Below, piece after piece: positions 10,777 to 38,429 of a DNA stretch of 64,000 nucleotides. The stretch spans positions 2,123 through 66,122 of IMG/VR virus record IMGVR_UViG_2848732850_000001. The stretch is one strand, 5' to 3'. The notes beneath the pieces were generated by a model that was given only the letters and a program-made list of their open reading frames with translations, was not told where the DNA came from and did no database searches. The translations under genes were made by a program, and so were the position numbers. The first letter of the stretch is position 1. Every line of letters begins with the position of its first letter. This DNA is from a virus. Lineage: Duplodnaviria > Caudoviricetes.

Positions 10777-11297
10777 AATCTGACGTACAGGTGACGAAAC
10801 ATGCGCGAGAAAGGGCTGAGCAACGATTTGGCATTCCGCGTAAACAAACCGGAAAGTGGTTGCGCCAGAAGTTCAGCAGAGCAACGCATATATCCGACAT
10901 AATCGGAGACGACGGAAACGAAGCGAGATTGTTCGTAGTAGACGGAATATTGCTCGTAGTAGACAAAGCTGAGGATCGGATTATCACGGTAATGACGCCT
11001 AACTGGACGAAAGAAACATGTGGTAAAATGCGAAACTTCGCCCGCCAAGAAATCACGAAAGAGAAAACGAAAGAACGACGTAGATTAAACGCACTTACCC
11101 GCCTGCAAGCGGAAATAGAAATAGAAATCGGCGAGTTGAGGTTGCGATTATTAAAGACGCGTAGCCTGCCCAAGAAATTGGCGATTCAAGGGAGGATTAA
11201 GGCGTTGAAAATGCGCTTAGAGGAGTTACCGCAAGAGGAACATATCATTAAGCGGAAACGGGTAGTTGCGGTACAGTCGTTGGCGCGAGTTTGGTAA
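10767..11297 (+). CDS. Hypothetical protein: N-terminal RelE/DUF4258-like motif plus coiled coil
   Basis: VTKHARERAEQR...IITV motif. Confidence 0.55.
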   Translation: MRMKSDVQVTKHARERAEQRFGIPRKQTGKWLRQKFSRATHISDIIGDDGNEARLFVVDGILLVVDKAEDRIITVMTPNWTKETCGKMRNFARQEITKEKTKERRRLNALTRLQAEIEIEIGELRLRLLKTRSLPKKLAIQGRIKALKMRLEELPQEEHIIKRKRVVAVQSLARVW

Positions 11298-34460: not shown

Positions 34461-34670
34461 ATGAAAAAAACTAATGAACGTACAGTAGCTAATATTTATA
34501 AAGACACAAGGGAGCTACTTAATGACTTTAAGACAAAGTACGAATTAAAAAGTGATGACCAAGCTATACGCTTTTTATGCCATTCTTTTGATGAGGAAAA
34601 AGGAAAAATGCTAAAAACTTATCTCGAGGTTAAAAAAGGGAAGAAAGGAGAGTCGCAAAACGATGAATGA
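34461..34670 (+). CDS. Putative ribbon-helix-helix regulator
   Basis: RTVANIYKDTRELLNDFK...SDDQAIRFL beta-alpha-alpha pattern. Confidence 0.55.
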   Translation: MKKTNERTVANIYKDTRELLNDFKTKYELKSDDQAIRFLCHSFDEEKGKMLKTYLEVKKGKKGESQNDE

Positions 34671-36003
34671 AACCGTACATGTAAAAGTATACTTTTCTGG
34701 TCGCTGTCCTCGTTGCAACCGATATAACGAGGAATTAACTTATGATTACGGCGTAAAGCCGTATAAAGATGTGGAAAAAGAAATGGATAAGGTAAACCAT
34801 AAAGTACAAGACATGTTATGTAAGTACTGCTCAACAGATTTTGCACCAGAGTCTCTTATATATAAGGAGACATTAGCGGACGTCAAGCTTGCACAAGTGG
34901 CGATAAATTACGACAACACGCTTGATGCCGAAACAAGTCGTCTATTAAATGCAGCGCATGCCAATCGGTTTGATTTTTTTAAACAACACGAGTCAGAGTT
35001 TTGGGACGGATTTGTCGCTCAAGCCTTACAAAACTGGCGTGACAGTATAAACGAGTTACAACCGCATGAGTTATTAGCAGGGTTAAATGCTTTAAATATA
35101 CCAACTAACGGACGTACAGCAAATCAATTAAAGCGTGAGGTACTAAACCGAGTAAAAACAACGGAGCAAAAAGCAAAATTTTGGCGATCAGCTAACCATG
35201 ACTATGTTTATAACCAACTCTTGGATATAGGTCCAATGGGATGGGACGTTGAAACAGAGATAAAACAATTTGGTCAATTGCGTACAAGATATGCTGTACT
35301 CAATTATCCAATGGAGGAGGTACAAGAGCGCCTGCGTACGGATATGATTGGTAAAGTAGTGCGTAAAGATCGTGGAGATAACGCCTTTTTATTTAAACGC
35401 ATTGCTCAATTGTCTGACGATTTTAGTCGTCTGTCTAAAAAACTACTGGACAGATATCATCAGATGCAGGAGTTGCGTGCTGAGATAGATGATAAAAATA
35501 TATTGATACATGAGTTGCGTCAGGCTCTTAAAAACGAGAGAACTAATAAAAATATTGTTAGCCGTGATCCAGATGACATCCGTAAAATACATGAGTTAAA
35601 AAGTCTCGTTAATGAGTTGAACGAGGTAAAGGGAGGGGAAAAAGAAGAACCGAAAGAGGTTGTTATCGAGGAAACTCCTATCAAAGCCGAATCAGCACAA
35701 CCAGCGGAAAAACGTAGCTTAGAGGGTAAAACCATTGGAATAATTGGTGGAAACCGGTCTGAGCAAGCCGAGCAAATAACGGAGTGCAATATATTGACTC
35801 ATGGAGGTAACGACCAAGATCATGAGTTTGATGCCTTGCTAAACGAGTCGGACGAGCTAGTTATACTAACCCGTTTTGTCTCACATGCAGCGATGTGGAA
35901 AGCAAAAGCGCATGCTATTACTGAGGGAAAACCGATACATTATATTAAATCAATTAACATACATCGTATCTTAGATGAGATAAAAACAATCACTACAACC
36001 TAG
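34663..36003 (+). CDS. Zn-ribbon / coiled-coil / DUF2325-like C-terminal domain protein
   Basis: CPRC..CKYC; heptads ~250-325; IGIIGG...D..VILTRFVSH.AMW.AK..A...GKP. Confidence 0.7.
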   Translation: MNETVHVKVYFSGRCPRCNRYNEELTYDYGVKPYKDVEKEMDKVNHKVQDMLCKYCSTDFAPESLIYKETLADVKLAQVAINYDNTLDAETSRLLNAAHANRFDFFKQHESEFWDGFVAQALQNWRDSINELQPHELLAGLNALNIPTNGRTANQLKREVLNRVKTTEQKAKFWRSANHDYVYNQLLDIGPMGWDVETEIKQFGQLRTRYAVLNYPMEEVQERLRTDMIGKVVRKDRGDNAFLFKRIAQLSDDFSRLSKKLLDRYHQMQELRAEIDDKNILIHELRQALKNERTNKNIVSRDPDDIRKIHELKSLVNELNEVKGGEKEEPKEVVIEETPIKAESAQPAEKRSLEGKTIGIIGGNRSEQAEQITECNILTHGGNDQDHEFDALLNESDELVILTRFVSHAAMWKAKAHAITEGKPIHYIKSINIHRILDEIKTITTT

Positions 36004-36036
36004 TAACCTGTTGGTATGGCTGTAGTGATGTTTAAA

Positions 36037-36065
36037 TTGACAGTACCTAAAATGTATTATATACT
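36037..36065 (+). promoter_or_regulatory. SigmaA promoter driving the solitary CRISPR repeat
   Basis: TTGACA-N17-TATACT, 11 nt upstream of the repeat; no ORF downstream on +. Confidence 0.85.
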
Positions 36066-36076
36066 TTATATATATA

Positions 36077-36138
36077 GTCGCCCGAGCAGGGCGTGGATTG
36101 AAACAATCTATTAGTAATGTAGACTAAAGGGTTTGTTA
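36077..36138 (+). CRISPR. Solitary type I-C-like CRISPR repeat (36077-36104) plus 34-nt spacer-like segment
   Basis: GTCGCCCGAGCAGGGCGTGGATTGAAAC: I-C-type 5' GTCGC and 3' GCGTGGATTGAAA(C/T), stem CGCCC/GGGCG; no second repeat and no cas genes. Confidence 0.85.
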
Positions 36139-36172
36139 AAAGAAGAGTGCCTATGTGGTGCTCTTCTTTCTT
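36139..36172 (+). terminator. Intrinsic terminator closing the repeat transcript
   Basis: AAAGAAGAGTGCC-TATGT-GGTGCTCTTCTTT; two G-U pairs form only on the + strand RNA. Confidence 0.75.
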
Positions 36173-36485
36173 ATTCATATGATTTGTCCTGAAGATACTC
36201 TTGATAAGAGTGGATCAACATCAACTGGATTTTATCGTCAACGGATGGATAAAAACCCCCGTATTTTTCAAAATCTTCAACCGAACAATAGTCCATCCTA
36301 GGACTCGGTGCGTATTGTCCTCCATACCGCAAGTATTTCCTTGCTTGTTTTTCGTCTATATGGTGACTTATTTCAAAATCACCGTATTTTTTTTCGAAGT
36401 GCTCGCCTACTTTATCTGATTCATATGCTAACATTGATTTATCGTTAGCGAATCCTCTACCTGAATAAACTAAGAATTTAATCAT
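36171..36485 (-). CDS. Small hypothetical protein, anti-defence candidate
   Basis: 104 aa, RBS AAGGGGAA, second gene under the operator-bearing promoter. Confidence 0.7.
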   Translation of the reverse strand: MIKFLVYSGRGFANDKSMLAYESDKVGEHFEKKYGDFEISHHIDEKQARKYLRYGGQYAPSPRMDYCSVEDFEKYGGFYPSVDDKIQLMLIHSYQEYLQDKSYE

Positions 36486-36544
36486 GTCTGTTTCCCCTTT
36501 TCTTTTTATTATAAGGCAGCGATTAACTTGCTGCCTTTATTTAA

Positions 36545-36757
36545 TTAATCTAAGCTAATAACGTTCCCGTTTCCGTCTTCCCATCCGTTAACATCTTCAC
36601 CGTTGTTTAAGTCTTCGATGATTTGTTCTTGGTCTTCTACAGTGGCGGGGTTGATTGTTCCCACTACCTTACCATTTTGGACTATTTCAAATTCGTGCAA
36701 ATCACCATCAAAATCTTTTTCCTCTACAGTGTAAGTTTCTCTAACCCATGTTCTCAT
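36545..36757 (-). CDS. Small acidic protein, Acr candidate
   Basis: 70 aa, 18 D/E vs 4 K/R; RBS AGGAGG. Confidence 0.75.
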   Translation of the reverse strand: MRTWVRETYTVEEKDFDGDLHEFEIVQNGKVVGTINPATVEDQEQIIEDLNNGEDVNGWEDGNGNVISLD

Positions 36758-36813
36758 TTTTTAGTTCCTCCTATGTTTTTTATTTTTTTATAGTATCTCT
36801 TGTTGTTAATACT

Positions 36814-36842
36814 ATTATATAACCTTATAAGGTTAATGCCAA
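36814..36842 (-). promoter_or_regulatory. SigmaA promoter with palindromic operator
   Basis: TTGGCA-N17-TATAAT; spacer contains perfect palindrome TAACCTTATAAGGTTA (36820-36835). Confidence 0.85.
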
Positions 36843-36860
36843 CAGGAAAATGAAAGTTTT

Positions 36861-37088
36861 TTATTCTTTTTCTCCAAACCAGTATTCCATGGCTTGTACA
36901 CTTATGATCCATTCTTTTCGCTTGCCATCTGGCTTTTGGAAATACTTTATAAGCCCTTGATCTATTAATCGGTCAATAGATTCTTGACCAACAACAGACG
37001 GCTTTAATTTATTTTTTACTGTTTCTAAGGACACCCCCCAACGGTGGGCGGCTTCCGATGGTGACATATAATTATTTATTTCTTTCAC
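36861..37088 (-). CDS. Small HTH protein, Aca-like repressor candidate
   Basis: MSPSEAAHRWGVSLETVKNKL HTH and WIIS..AM..WFG tail; last gene of its operon. Confidence 0.75.
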   Translation of the reverse strand: MKEINNYMSPSEAAHRWGVSLETVKNKLKPSVVGQESIDRLIDQGLIKYFQKPDGKRKEWIISVQAMEYWFGEKE

Positions 37089-38005
37089 GTTTTCCTCTCC
37101 TTTAATTCCATGTATTCTTTTATTTTAGGCACTTCCTTTTTGCTTTGATAGTAGAGTATTTTACATACATCACTACCACTGTGATCTGCTATCTTTTTGA
37201 TAGTTGTGCCTAAATAAATATGTAAGTGTTGATTAAGCATATCCAATAGCTGGTAACTAGCGTAAAATCGTAGTCTAGGCTGGGTTCTTACACGATCGTA
37301 ACTATAGTGGGTATAAAAATACCCTTTTAAAAAGTTATGCTCATCCAGCCGTCTAAATAGTCGTGGTGCCGATCTTTCCAAATTTCCTTGACGGCCTACA
37401 TATCCGTTTTTAATCATGTATTGTACATACTCATTATCAATCCTCATTTTAACTCGATAAGACTTTTTCCTGCTATCGGTAACAGTATTAAATATTTTAT
37501 TTTGGATACCTGTAATTCTCTTTACCTTTAACAGTAATTTCTTATCCGAGTTTTGGATGAGGAAATAATCGCCAGAAAAACGAGCACTACCCCATAAAAA
37601 CCCTAAAACCCAATAACTTAGCGAAGATTTCCTTGAGCATCCACACGATTTTGCATTACCACTCACTAAATTAGTTGTGGTGACTTTGGTATACTCATTA
37701 CAATCGCATCGGCATAACCACAACGCTGACTTAGTTGTTGGGTGTGTACCTAGCCTTTTGATCACAGTCAACTTATTAAATGTTTGACCAGCTAAATCGC
37801 GTGTGTTTACCTCCGCTGCTCTCTCAGGTTTTAAACACCCGCACGATCGTGTATTTCCACTTCGCAAACTATCCATTAGTACGACTGTGTAGTTCTCACA
37901 TTTACACTTACAGAGCCAACGCCTTTTTGTGCCATGTTGCTCTACCTCTTTTACTACAGTCAATTTACCGTAACTTTGACCGGAAATATCCAAGCGTTTA
38001 CGCAT
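37085..38005 (-). CDS. Tandem Cys-rich homing-endonuclease-type repeats fused to a degenerate LAGLIDADG-like domain
   Basis: 2x D..GQ...KLTV...WLC.C.C......L.SGN..SCGC; then YWVLGFLWGSA and HNFLKGYFYTH. Confidence 0.65.
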   Translation of the reverse strand: MRKRLDISGQSYGKLTVVKEVEQHGTKRRWLCKCKCENYTVVLMDSLRSGNTRSCGCLKPERAAEVNTRDLAGQTFNKLTVIKRLGTHPTTKSALWLCRCDCNEYTKVTTTNLVSGNAKSCGCSRKSSLSYWVLGFLWGSARFSGDYFLIQNSDKKLLLKVKRITGIQNKIFNTVTDSRKKSYRVKMRIDNEYVQYMIKNGYVGRQGNLERSAPRLFRRLDEHNFLKGYFYTHYSYDRVRTQPRLRFYASYQLLDMLNQHLHIYLGTTIKKIADHSGSDVCKILYYQSKKEVPKIKEYMELKERKT

Positions 38006-38400: not shown

Positions 38401-38429
38401 ATTATATAACCTTATAAGGTTAAAGTCAA
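38401..38429 (-). promoter_or_regulatory. SigmaA promoter with the same palindromic operator
   Basis: TTGACT-N17-TATAAT; TAACCTTATAAGGTTA at 38407-38422; degenerate copy ~38464-38479. Confidence 0.88.

What the first reader, a model, noticed from the sequence alone, without database searches (positions are those of the whole stretch)
36037..36172. Self-contained crRNA-mimic gene: promoter, single type I-C repeat, 34-nt segment, terminator
Seen: TTGACA-N17-TATACT; GTCGCCCGAGCAGGGCGTGGATTGAAAC (28 nt, 5-bp stem); AATCTATTAGTAATGTAGACTAAAGGGTTTGTTA (34 nt); then a hairpin with + strand G-U pairs and a U tract. No cas genes and no second repeat. Established: I-C repeats (~32 nt, GTCGC...GCGTGGATTGAAA[T/C]) are cut by Cas5d at the 3' base of the stem, leaving an 11-nt handle (here TGGATTGAAAC); I-C spacers are ~33-35 nt; phage solitary repeats can act as RNA anti-CRISPRs (Racrs). 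Inference: host Cas5d would produce handle + full-length guide + terminator hairpin in place of the 3' repeat stem. This could be a decoy that titrates Cascade, a guide that represses a host (e.g. cas) promoter by partial pairing, or a one-spacer array against a competing phage. I saw no match to the 34-mer inside the window by eye.
Basis: partly seen in the sequence, partly recalled or inferred. Interest (0 to 1): 0.92.

Follow-up and report, generated by a model that had tools for sequence, protein, structure and literature searches.

The report
Phage RNA gene mimicking CRISPR guide
A prophage of a Bacillus-like bacterium carries a tiny RNA gene built from one CRISPR repeat, most likely to jam or hijack the host's CRISPR defence, which is a good new example of a phage trick that has already been described.

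Summary
At 36037-36176 (+) lie a near-consensus promoter, one 28-nt type I-C-style repeat, a 34-nt spacer-like segment and a terminator hairpin. That promoter is the only match of 11/12 or better on the + strand of the 64-kb window. The record is a complete provirus, integrase to endolysin, of a Bacillaceae-type host. It has no cas5d match and no second repeat. The repeat keeps the features reported to matter for Cas5c cutting: stem base, UGG, 11-nt handle. Its stem is 5 bp instead of 7. With almost no leader, the useful product would be handle + 34 nt + 3' hairpin. That is the layout published for the viral CracrVA1 and for a Neisseria I-C regulatory crlRNA. It is not the handle-less RacrIF1 layout. 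The most likely role is an RNA anti-CRISPR that loads host Cascade. I could not tell a pure competitor from a promoter-silencing guide, because the host genome was out of reach. The 34-mer found no target. An unrelated viral contig (L123) has the same design, and the closest relatives lack the cassette. This is a new member of a known kind. This scan already reported similar I-C units in Paenibacillus and Heyndrickxia prophages.

The parts
36037..36065 (+). Sigma-70-type promoter TTGACA-N17-TATACT. The start site is inferred at about 36072-36074, 3-5 nt before the repeat.
   Evidence: 11/12; the only match of 11/12 or better on the + strand of the window. The start site is inferred from the usual -10 to +1 distance.
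36077..36104 (+). Solitary type I-C-style repeat (psi-R), 28 nt: GU overhang, 5-bp stem (36079-36083 with 36089-36093), pentaloop GAGCA, 11-nt handle 36094-36104. The Cas5c cut is predicted after 36093.
   Evidence: The repeat family lies in arrays 5.5-9.1 kb from Cas5d genes in 5 of 5 genomes. The cut site is inferred from PMC8524198.
36105..36138 (+). 34-nt spacer-like segment (psi-S), 26% G+C. It has an internal 5-bp hairpin, and its first 6 nt can pair with the handle.
   Evidence: No target found.
36139..36176 (+). Intrinsic terminator: 13-bp hairpin 36139-36169 plus a T-rich tail. It sits where the 3' repeat hairpin of a crRNA would be and abuts the stop codon of the convergent gene.
   Evidence: Reading for the G-U pairs.
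36171..36757 (-). Context: a convergent two-gene operon of orphan small proteins, 70 aa (very acidic) at 36545-36757 and 104 aa at 36171-36485. They are Acr candidates by position only.
   Evidence: No family or PDB match.
36814..37088 (-). Context: promoter 36842-36814 carrying the palindrome AACCTTATAAGGTT, and the 75-aa HTH gene 36861-37088 just upstream. The layout is Aca-like.
   Evidence: The same palindrome lies in the promoter 38429-38401.

Best explanation
This is a phage-encoded small RNA gene that imitates a complete type I-C CRISPR RNA and serves as an RNA anti-CRISPR.

Shown: a near-consensus promoter sits 11 nt upstream of a single I-C-style repeat. A 34-nt spacer-like segment and a terminator hairpin follow.

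Inferred: transcription starts 3-5 nt before the repeat. In a host with a I-C system, Cas5c cuts at the 3' base of the 5-bp stem, after 36093. The roughly 20-nt 5' hairpin piece is discarded. The 3' product carries the authentic 11-nt 5' handle, 34 nt of guide-length RNA and a hairpin where the 3' repeat hairpin would be. Cas5c, Cas7 and Cas8c would therefore assemble on it as on a real crRNA. Made from a strong promoter, it would divert Cascade from the host's phage-targeting crRNAs.

Whether the 34-mer also steers that Cascade to a host cas or defence promoter by partial pairing (the Cracr mode) cannot be decided here. I put about 0.3 on that and about 0.35 on pure competition.
For: - The elements are real and their juxtaposition is not chance.
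- The repeat belongs to the GTCGC...GCGTGGATTGAAAY family. That family forms arrays 5.5-9.1 kb from Cas5d genes in 5 of 5 genomes checked.
- It keeps the features reported to matter for B. halodurans Cas5c: stem base, U22-G23-G24 and the 3' overhang. The loop and the 5' overhang are reported as dispensable (PMC8524198, passages).
- A Neisseria I-C SRU with one psi-R gives Cascade-bound crlRNAs with an 11-nt handle and a 3' end in a 3' hairpin (10.1101/2024.12.27.630466, section 4).
- The viral CracrVA1 is one psi-R + psi-S + rho-independent terminator (10.1101/2024.10.29.618823, passages).
- RacrIC1 is a validated I-C RNA anti-CRISPR, and a non-targeting crRNA alone lowers interference (PMC10651486, passages).
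- The unrelated viral contig L123 has the same design: a 12/12 promoter 5 nt upstream, a 28-nt repeat, and a hairpin starting 35 nt after the repeat.
- The cassette is accessory. The provirus whose DUF2325 protein is 87% identical lacks it. So do 3 of 3 cultured relatives.
- It lies next to an operator-controlled operon of small orphan proteins with an HTH gene.
Against: - No expression or processing data exist, and no function was tested.
- The host genome could not be reached, so it is unknown whether the host has a I-C system or what its repeat looks like.
- The stem is 5 bp where characterised I-C repeats have 7 bp. Whether Cas5c accepts that is untested.
- The exact 28-mer occurs nowhere else in viral contigs or metagenome contigs. 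There is therefore no conservation to lean on.
- The neighbouring small proteins match no known Acr or any family.
- The terminator could equally be read as serving the flanking genes.
- The handle can pair with the start of the 34-mer (7 bp), which might compete with Cas5c binding.
Confidence: 0.65

Rival explanations
1. Cracr mode specifically. This is a special case of the best explanation, not exclusive of it. The 34-mer is a copy of, or a match to, the host's own cas-regulating or toxin-regulating crRNA-like RNA. It guides Cascade by about 9-16 PAM-proximal base pairs to a host cas, CreT or defence-system promoter, and silences it without cleavage.
For: - The architecture is identical to CracrVA1 and to host I-C crlRNAs.
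- I-C Cracrs are reported among 219 candidates.
- The 34-mer is AT-rich (26% G+C, my count) and holds a promoter-like TTGAAA-N16-TAGACT match together with the handle, as a copy of a promoter region might.
Against: - No CreR-like element with the same handle and seed was found: 0 in viral contigs. The 17 metagenome hits are 14 matches without a repeat 5' part and 3 ordinary array spacers.
- No host cas promoter could be examined.
- AT-richness fits a spacer taken from an AT-rich phage just as well.
Confidence: 0.3
2. It is a one-spacer guide for conflict between mobile elements. The 34-mer is a true spacer, and the prophage uses the host's I-C Cascade-Cas3 to destroy a competing phage or plasmid.
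For: The length is that of a full I-C spacer: 34 nt, against 33-34 nt in S. mutans and array periods of 64-69 nt. Mini-arrays in viruses are a known phenomenon, cited in PMC10651486.
Against: - No protospacer turned up in phages or plasmids.
- None turned up in 2.9 million viral contigs with a 23-nt seed pattern.
- None turned up in the window, in four related phage genomes totalling 240,708 b, or in 1.46 Mb of other loci. The best seeds there are 10-11 positions without a TTC PAM, which is chance level.
- There is only one repeat, so it is not an array.
- Most real spacers also lack database matches, so this evidence is weak.
Confidence: 0.1
3. It is an inert relic: a repeat plus spacer captured from a host array by recombination, lying by chance between a promoter and a terminator that serve the neighbouring genes.
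For: - It is a singleton with no conserved relatives.
- Shortened 28-nt units also arise as sporadic deletion variants inside ordinary arrays, in 6 of 9 genome loci.
- The terminator abuts the stop of the convergent gene.
Against: - The only strong + strand promoter in 64 kb ends 11 nt before the repeat.
- The hairpin starts exactly 34 nt after it and is stronger on the + strand.
- L123 has the same layout in an unrelated phage.
- All 39 viral contigs with 28-29-nt units carry them singly.
Confidence: 0.1
4. It is a RacrIF1-type decoy. The active product would be the piece upstream of the cut, a handle-less RNA that nucleates an aberrant Cas7 filament.
For: This is the one Racr mechanism that has been worked out (PMC10651486).
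Against: RacrIF1's active product is 70-76 nt upstream of the cut. Here the promoter leaves only about 3-5 nt of leader, so the upstream piece is about 20-25 nt of hairpin with no room for Cas7. In I-C the nuclease Cas5c stays with the 5' handle, that is, with the downstream piece.
Confidence: 0.03

Closest known systems
Cracr RNAs, viral crRNA-like regulatory anti-CRISPR RNAs (Liu et al., bioRxiv 10.1101/2024.10.29.618823), in particular CracrVA1 and the I-C candidates
   Same: Phage-borne. A single repeat-like unit, a spacer-like segment and a rho-independent terminator. The product carries a 5' handle and can load the effector.
   Different: Cracrs are defined by 9 or more PAM-proximal matches to a host CreA/CreR spacer or promoter target, and no such match could be tested or found here. 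CracrVA1 is type V-A, whereas this element is I-C with a stem-shortened repeat.
Racrs, RNA anti-CRISPRs from viral solitary repeat units (Camara-Wilpert et al. 2023, PMC10651486), in particular RacrIC1
   Same: A solitary repeat in an intergenic region of a provirus, directly downstream of a predicted promoter, in a region that looks like an anti-defence island. The subtype is I-C, as for RacrIC1.
   Different: RacrIC1 is co-transcribed 11 nt behind an AcrIC5 gene, whereas this unit has its own promoter. RacrIF1 acts through the handle-less upstream fragment, whereas here only the handle-bearing downstream fragment has any length. No inhibition has been shown here.
Host type I-C crlRNA of the Nezha-associated SRU in Neisseria (bioRxiv 10.1101/2024.12.27.630466)
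   Same: One psi-R cut to leave the 11-nt handle, a psi-S, and a 3' hairpin in place of a second repeat. It shows that I-C Cascade accepts this design.
   Different: That element lies inside a host cas operon and has a proven 16-bp target with a TTC PAM. This one lies in a phage, far from any cas gene, and its target is unknown.
Virus-borne mini-CRISPR arrays used in conflicts between viruses
   Same: A repeat plus a full-length spacer on a virus without cas genes.
   Different: Those have two or more repeats and spacers that match related viruses. Here there is one repeat and no match in relatives.

Membership tests
Type I-C CRISPR repeat | 2-nt 5' overhang, stem, pentaloop, 11-nt 3' overhang beginning UGG. 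Characterised repeats have a 7-bp stem and 32 nt in all (PMC8524198). | tested here: inconclusive
   The overhangs, the pentaloop, UGG and the whole handle are present. The stem is 5 bp and the unit 28 nt, so it is a shortened variant. Rfam CRISPR-DR9 scores only 21.4 bits against a gathering score of 45.
Type I-C CRISPR repeat | The repeat family is associated with I-C cas genes. | tested here: met
   This holds for the family, not for this copy. Arrays of GTCGC...GCGTGGATTGAAAC lie 5.5-9.1 kb from a Cas5d (PF09704) match on the same contig and strand in 5 of 5 genomes. One of the five matches is weak, at 29.8 bits.
Solitary repeat unit (SRU) in the sense of SRUFinder, PMC10651486 | Intergenic, with no other full or partial repeat within 100 bp. 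| tested here: met
   It lies between the stop at 36003 and the stop at 36171. There is a single copy at up to 3 mismatches. The best local match of the repeat to its flanks scores 5.0, which is background.
Solitary repeat unit (SRU) in the sense of SRUFinder, PMC10651486 | BLAST match to a reference repeat with 90% or more coverage and a bit score of at least 41.1. | not tested
   The SRUFinder reference set was not available. A 28-nt unit against 32-nt references may fall under 90% coverage and be filed as partial.
Racr (functional RNA anti-CRISPR) | Inhibits the cognate CRISPR-Cas system and is bound by its Cas proteins. | not testable with these tools
   Needs interference assays and pull-downs.
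Racr (functional RNA anti-CRISPR) | The host carries the matching CRISPR-Cas subtype (83% of GTDB prophage SRUs, PMC10651486). | not testable with these tools
Terminase relatives point to Bacillaceae in the broad sense.
Racr (functional RNA anti-CRISPR) | Acr genes nearby (an enrichment, not a requirement). | tested here: inconclusive
   Within 1 kb lie an operator-controlled operon of 70-aa and 104-aa orphan proteins and an HTH gene. They have no similarity to any family or solved structure.
Cracr (viral crRNA-like regulatory RNA) | psi-R plus psi-S, often with a terminator, on a virus outside any CRISPR-cas locus. | tested here: met
Cracr (viral crRNA-like regulatory RNA) | psi-S shares 9 or more PAM-proximal nucleotides with a host CreA/CreR spacer or its promoter target. 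| not testable with these tools
   No host locus was available. The partial searches were negative: 0 in viral contigs, and only chance or ordinary-spacer hits in metagenome contigs. Tables S1 and S2 of the preprint could not be read, because supplements are closed.
Viral mini-CRISPR array | Two or more repeats flanking the spacer. | tested here: not met
   One repeat only. The sequence after the 34-mer is a terminator hairpin, not a degenerate repeat.
Viral mini-CRISPR array | The spacer matches related viruses. | tested here: not met
   There is no protospacer in four related genomes, in phages or in viral contigs.

The most novel reading that the evidence does not exclude
Stem-shortened (28-29-nt) I-C repeats may be a distinct design selected in viruses, not decay products. 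The design would be a minimal hairpin that is thrown away, a start site at the repeat, the universal I-C handle, a guide-length body and a terminator as the 3' hairpin. That would give a compact, possibly broad-host crRNA scaffold with which phages reprogramme whatever I-C Cascade they meet. In IMG/VR all 39 contigs with such units carry them singly. In the first scan, 16 of 88 solitary units were 28-30 nt, against 0 of 28 arrays. The window and L123 reached the same full design independently.
Probability: 0.2. Interest if true: 0.55.

Novelty: new member of a known kind. Interest (0 to 1): 0.3.

Why it matters
This is a clean, fully delimited example of a self-contained I-C crRNA mimic in a Bacillaceae-type temperate phage. 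It has its own promoter, no leader and a terminator acting as the 3' hairpin. That makes it easy to test: one ~140-bp cassette can be cloned against any I-C system. The outcome would show whether such units act as competitors or as promoter-silencing guides. It would also show whether a 5-bp stem is enough for Cas5c, and whether the neighbouring orphan genes are new I-C anti-CRISPR proteins. It does not establish a new principle.

Tried and rejected
Chance: rejected.

Second or degenerate repeat: none.

Flank duplication as the origin of the 34-mer: the window scores 6.5, inside the null.

Self-targeting or self-regulation: the best seed in the window is 9 positions with a TTA PAM, which is chance level.

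Targets elsewhere:
- Phages: two chance-level hits, E = 4.
- Plasmids: one hit, E = 0.9.
- Viral contigs seed pattern: 0.
- Relatives and all held loci: nothing with a TTC PAM.

Same handle plus seed elsewhere: 0 in viral contigs. The 17 metagenome hits were 14 without a repeat 5' part and 3 ordinary array spacers.

Exact 28-mer elsewhere: 0 in viral contigs and 0 in metagenome contigs.

Repeat plus 34-mer by blastn: nothing meaningful in plasmids or phages.

The locus (34600-37100) against the phage collection: no match.

The 104-aa neighbour in viral contigs: no relative.

Sequencing runs: no RNA holder is listed. Only small shares (0.11 and 0.06 of the words) occur in DNA runs of one study. 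I did not lay them and I draw nothing from them.

ESM Atlas on the endolysin: phylum-level taxa only.

Host genus: not resolved. Named terminase relatives are at most 69% identical and spread over many Bacillaceae genera.

Paper search for the flank-duplication signature: uninformative, so I make no claim on whether it is in print.

Supplements of the Racr and Cracr papers (lists of SRUs and Cracrs) are closed. This element or L123 may be listed there.

Full report
WHAT IS THERE. The window is 2123-66122 of a 66,122-b IMG/VR provirus record rated 100% complete. The record begins with a tyrosine integrase (L011). It then has a replication block: DnaB-like helicase, primase, family A DNA polymerase, ribonucleotide reductase, C5 and other methyltransferases and a sigma factor. 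An accessory block of about 5 kb follows. After it come terminase, SPP1-type portal, SU10-type capsid, tail genes and an amidase endolysin. None of the 32 ORFs I scanned belongs to a Cas family, and Cas5d (PF09704) finds nothing in the record.

THE ELEMENT. The finding lies in the accessory block, between the stop of a 446-aa DUF2325 gene (34663-36003, +) and the stop of a convergent 104-aa orphan gene (36171-36485, -). Read, it consists of:
- TTGACA-N17-TATACT at 36037-36065;
- 11 nt of TA-rich sequence;
- GTCGCCCGAGCAGGGCGTGGATTGAAAC at 36077-36104;
- a 34-mer at 36105-36138;
- a 13-bp hairpin at 36139-36169, followed by CTTATTC.

IS IT MORE THAN CHANCE?
- The repeat is unique at up to 3 mismatches, and no shuffle of 100 gives a match.
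- The promoter scores 11/12. A scan of the whole window finds it to be the only match of 11/12 or better on the + strand. Six more lie on the - strand. Fifty shuffles gave a mean of 1.86 on both strands together and at most 5.
- In the 5.2-kb region the total numbers of weak promoter-like and terminator-like sites are not above shuffles: 17 against 15.4, and 4 against 3.3. Only the quality and placement of these two sites carry weight.
- The transcript folds much better than shuffles: -35.3 kcal/mol, z = -4.2.
- Two pairs of the terminator stem are G-U on the + strand RNA and would be mismatches on the other strand. The hairpin therefore serves the + strand unit at least as well as the convergent gene.

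IS THE REPEAT TYPE I-C?
- Rfam gives only a sub-threshold CRISPR-DR9 hit.
- The evidence comes from comparison. A scan of one genome per species for GTCGCCC-N5-GGGCGTGGATTGAAAY gave 9 loci. In 6 of them the 28-nt unit is a shortened variant inside a long array of 32-nt GTCGC...GCGTGGATTGAAAC repeats with periods of 64-69 nt.
- In 5 of 5 of those genomes that I checked, a Cas5d match lies 5.5-9.1 kb away on the same contig and strand. Four match at E about 1e-42 and one is weak.
- PMC8524198 (passages read) describes I-C repeats of four species as a 2-nt 5' overhang, a 7-bp stem, a 5-nt loop and an 11-nt 3' overhang. [quoted passage not shown]
- For the B. halodurans enzyme, recognition centres on U22-G23-G24, the stem base and the 3' overhang. 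The loop and the 5' overhang do not matter.
- The window's unit has the same overhangs, a pentaloop, the UGG and the complete handle. Only the stem is 5 bp instead of 7.

HOST. The terminase is 63-64% identical to those of three B. subtilis phages, 56% to a Sporosarcina phage and 48-49% to Paenibacillus larvae phages. In the large protein collection the nearest relatives are at most 74% identical. The named ones come from Cytobacillus, Oceanobacillus, Robertmurraya, Heyndrickxia, Shouchella, Thalassobacillus, Virgibacillus and Bacillus. The host is therefore a member of Bacillaceae in the broad sense, genus unknown. Plasmid loci gave handles without relatives.

IS THE CASSETTE CONSERVED? No.
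- The only viral contig that encodes a close relative of the DUF2325 protein (87% identity) has a different convergent gene directly after it and no repeat.
- Its whole 42.6-kb record holds only two one-mismatch chance matches to the handle, and neither is a repeat.
- The three closest cultured phages hold none. One one-mismatch site in phi18-2 is not a repeat.
- The exact 28-mer is absent from viral contigs and metagenome contigs.

The unit is thus an accessory insertion in a variable region.

THE CLASS. Of these, 88 hold one exact match and 28 hold several.
- Solitary units are often shortened: 16 of 88 are 28-30 nt, whereas all 28 multi-copy loci have a modal length of 31 or 32 nt.
- A second scan for 28-29-nt units found 39 contigs, all with a single copy.
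- With simple detectors, 6 of 88 have a promoter of 10/12 or better within 40 nt, 5 of 88 have a strict terminator within 70 nt, and 1 (L123) has both.
- Among the 39 short units the figures are 3, 14 and 1.
- These detectors suit sigma-70-type promoters only, so they give lower bounds.
- L123 shares no detectable protein similarity with the window (tblastx at 1e-5). It nevertheless has a 12/12 promoter ending 5 nt before a 28-nt repeat, and a hairpin starting 35 nt after the repeat (34 nt for the window by the same detector). The design has therefore arisen at least twice.

WHAT THE LITERATURE SAYS.
- PMC10651486 (passages): viral solitary repeat units often lie directly downstream of a predicted promoter. 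The authors report 2,103 of them on viral sequences. Nine candidates, among them RacrIC1 from a Bifidobacterium prophage, inhibit CRISPR-Cas.
- In the same paper, the active product of RacrIF1 is the 70-76-nt piece upstream of the Cas6f cut. It lacks a 5' handle and builds a Cas6f-Cas7f filament without Cas5f or Cas8f. A non-targeting crRNA also lowers interference.
- 10.1101/2024.10.29.618823 (abstract, section 7 and passages): phages carry crRNA-like regulatory RNAs, the Cracrs. The first one consists of a single psi-R, a psi-S and a rho-independent terminator. The 219 candidates, I-C ones included, were defined by 9 or more PAM-proximal matches to host CreA/CreR spacers.
- 10.1101/2024.12.27.630466 (section 4): a Neisseria I-C SRU with one psi-R yields 48-50-nt crlRNAs. 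They are cut to leave the 11-nt handle and end in the loop of a 3' hairpin. They repress a promoter through 16 bp next to a TTC PAM.

HOW IT MOST LIKELY WORKS. The -10 box ends 11 nt before the repeat, so the leader is about 3-5 nt (inferred). The piece upstream of a Cas5c cut would be a bare hairpin of about 20 nt. This rules out the RacrIF1 mode. The downstream piece has the authentic handle, 34 nt and a hairpin where the 3' repeat hairpin would be, which is the proven I-C crlRNA design. I therefore read it as a Cascade-loading crRNA mimic made from a strong promoter, and so as an RNA anti-CRISPR.

Whether the 34-mer also has a target is open. I found none:
- in the window;
- in four related phage genomes or 1.46 Mb of other loci;
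- in phages or plasmids;
- in viral contigs with a seed pattern.

No other crRNA-like unit shares its handle plus seed. None of this excludes a host promoter target, because no host sequence was searched. The low G+C of the 34-mer and a promoter-like hexamer pair within it would suit a copy of a promoter region, but they are not evidence for one.

CONTEXT. The convergent operon encodes a very acidic 70-aa protein and a 104-aa protein. It is driven by a promoter at 36842-36814 that holds the perfect palindrome AACCTTATAAGGTT between its hexamers. The same palindrome sits in the promoter at 38429-38401. A 75-aa HTH gene lies between the two promoters. This resembles acr-aca operons. The small proteins match no Pfam or PHROG family and no solved structure, so the resemblance is positional only.

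VERDICT. The reading as a self-contained crRNA mimic is sound and has direct published precedent. Function is untested and the host is unknown. It is a new member of a known kind. Earlier notes of this scan, which I did not check, report similar I-C units in Paenibacillus and Heyndrickxia prophages.

Noticed in passing
L104, L121, L161, L072, L055, L030, L062, L168, L110, L057 (viral contigs), at the solitary repeat: In 14 of 106 dereplicated viral solitary I-C repeats, the sequence just after the repeat duplicates the sequence just before it. Ten exceed the maximum of 2,109 permuted pairs. In L104 and L121 the duplicated block is 34 nt, giving X-repeat-X. This looks like a footprint of how such units are acquired: integrase-type insertion, or recombination with a matching host spacer. 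The window's unit lacks it.
   Followed up: partly
L123, reverse strand, about 10880-11020 of the reversed locus (G002:C1:26438-26449 holds the handle): An unrelated viral contig has the same complete design: a 12/12 promoter 5 nt upstream, a 28-nt repeat with a 4-bp stem, a spacer-like segment of about 34-37 nt and a terminator.
   Followed up: partly
L152, L158, L163, L167, L170 (viral contigs): These form a conserved family of 28-nt solitary I-C units. Their downstream sequence is almost identical, with a terminator 20 nt after the repeat. L152 differs from the others in the stem-loop letters while keeping a hairpin.
   Followed up: no
Solitary repeats, first bases after the repeat: Nine of 88 solitary units are followed by AAAC, and 17 of 88 by AAA plus A, C or T. 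Several unrelated contigs share longer starts, such as AAACAAAC in L054, L074 and L088. Shared seeds could mean shared targets, which would be Cracr-like.
   Followed up: no
L057 (provirus of an isolate genome), around the repeat: A mini-array of three repeat-like units, two of them partial in the view I printed, has two spacer-like segments that resemble each other. This is the pattern described for Cracr arrays.
   Followed up: no
window 36814-36842 and 38401-38429, - strand: Two 11/12 promoters carry the same perfect palindrome AACCTTATAAGGTT between -35 and -10. A 75-aa HTH gene (36861-37088) lies between them. This looks like an autoregulated acr-aca-like circuit.
   Followed up: partly
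window 36094-36110: The handle UGGAUUG can pair with CAAUCUA, the last handle base plus the first 6 nt of the 34-mer, to form a 7-bp hairpin in the minimum-energy fold. L115 begins its spacer-like segment in almost the same way. The meaning is unknown, and it may be chance.
   Followed up: no
window 36047-36178, - strand: A 43-aa ATG ORF runs antisense across the whole element. It spans the terminator and the repeat, and I take it to be spurious.
   Followed up: no
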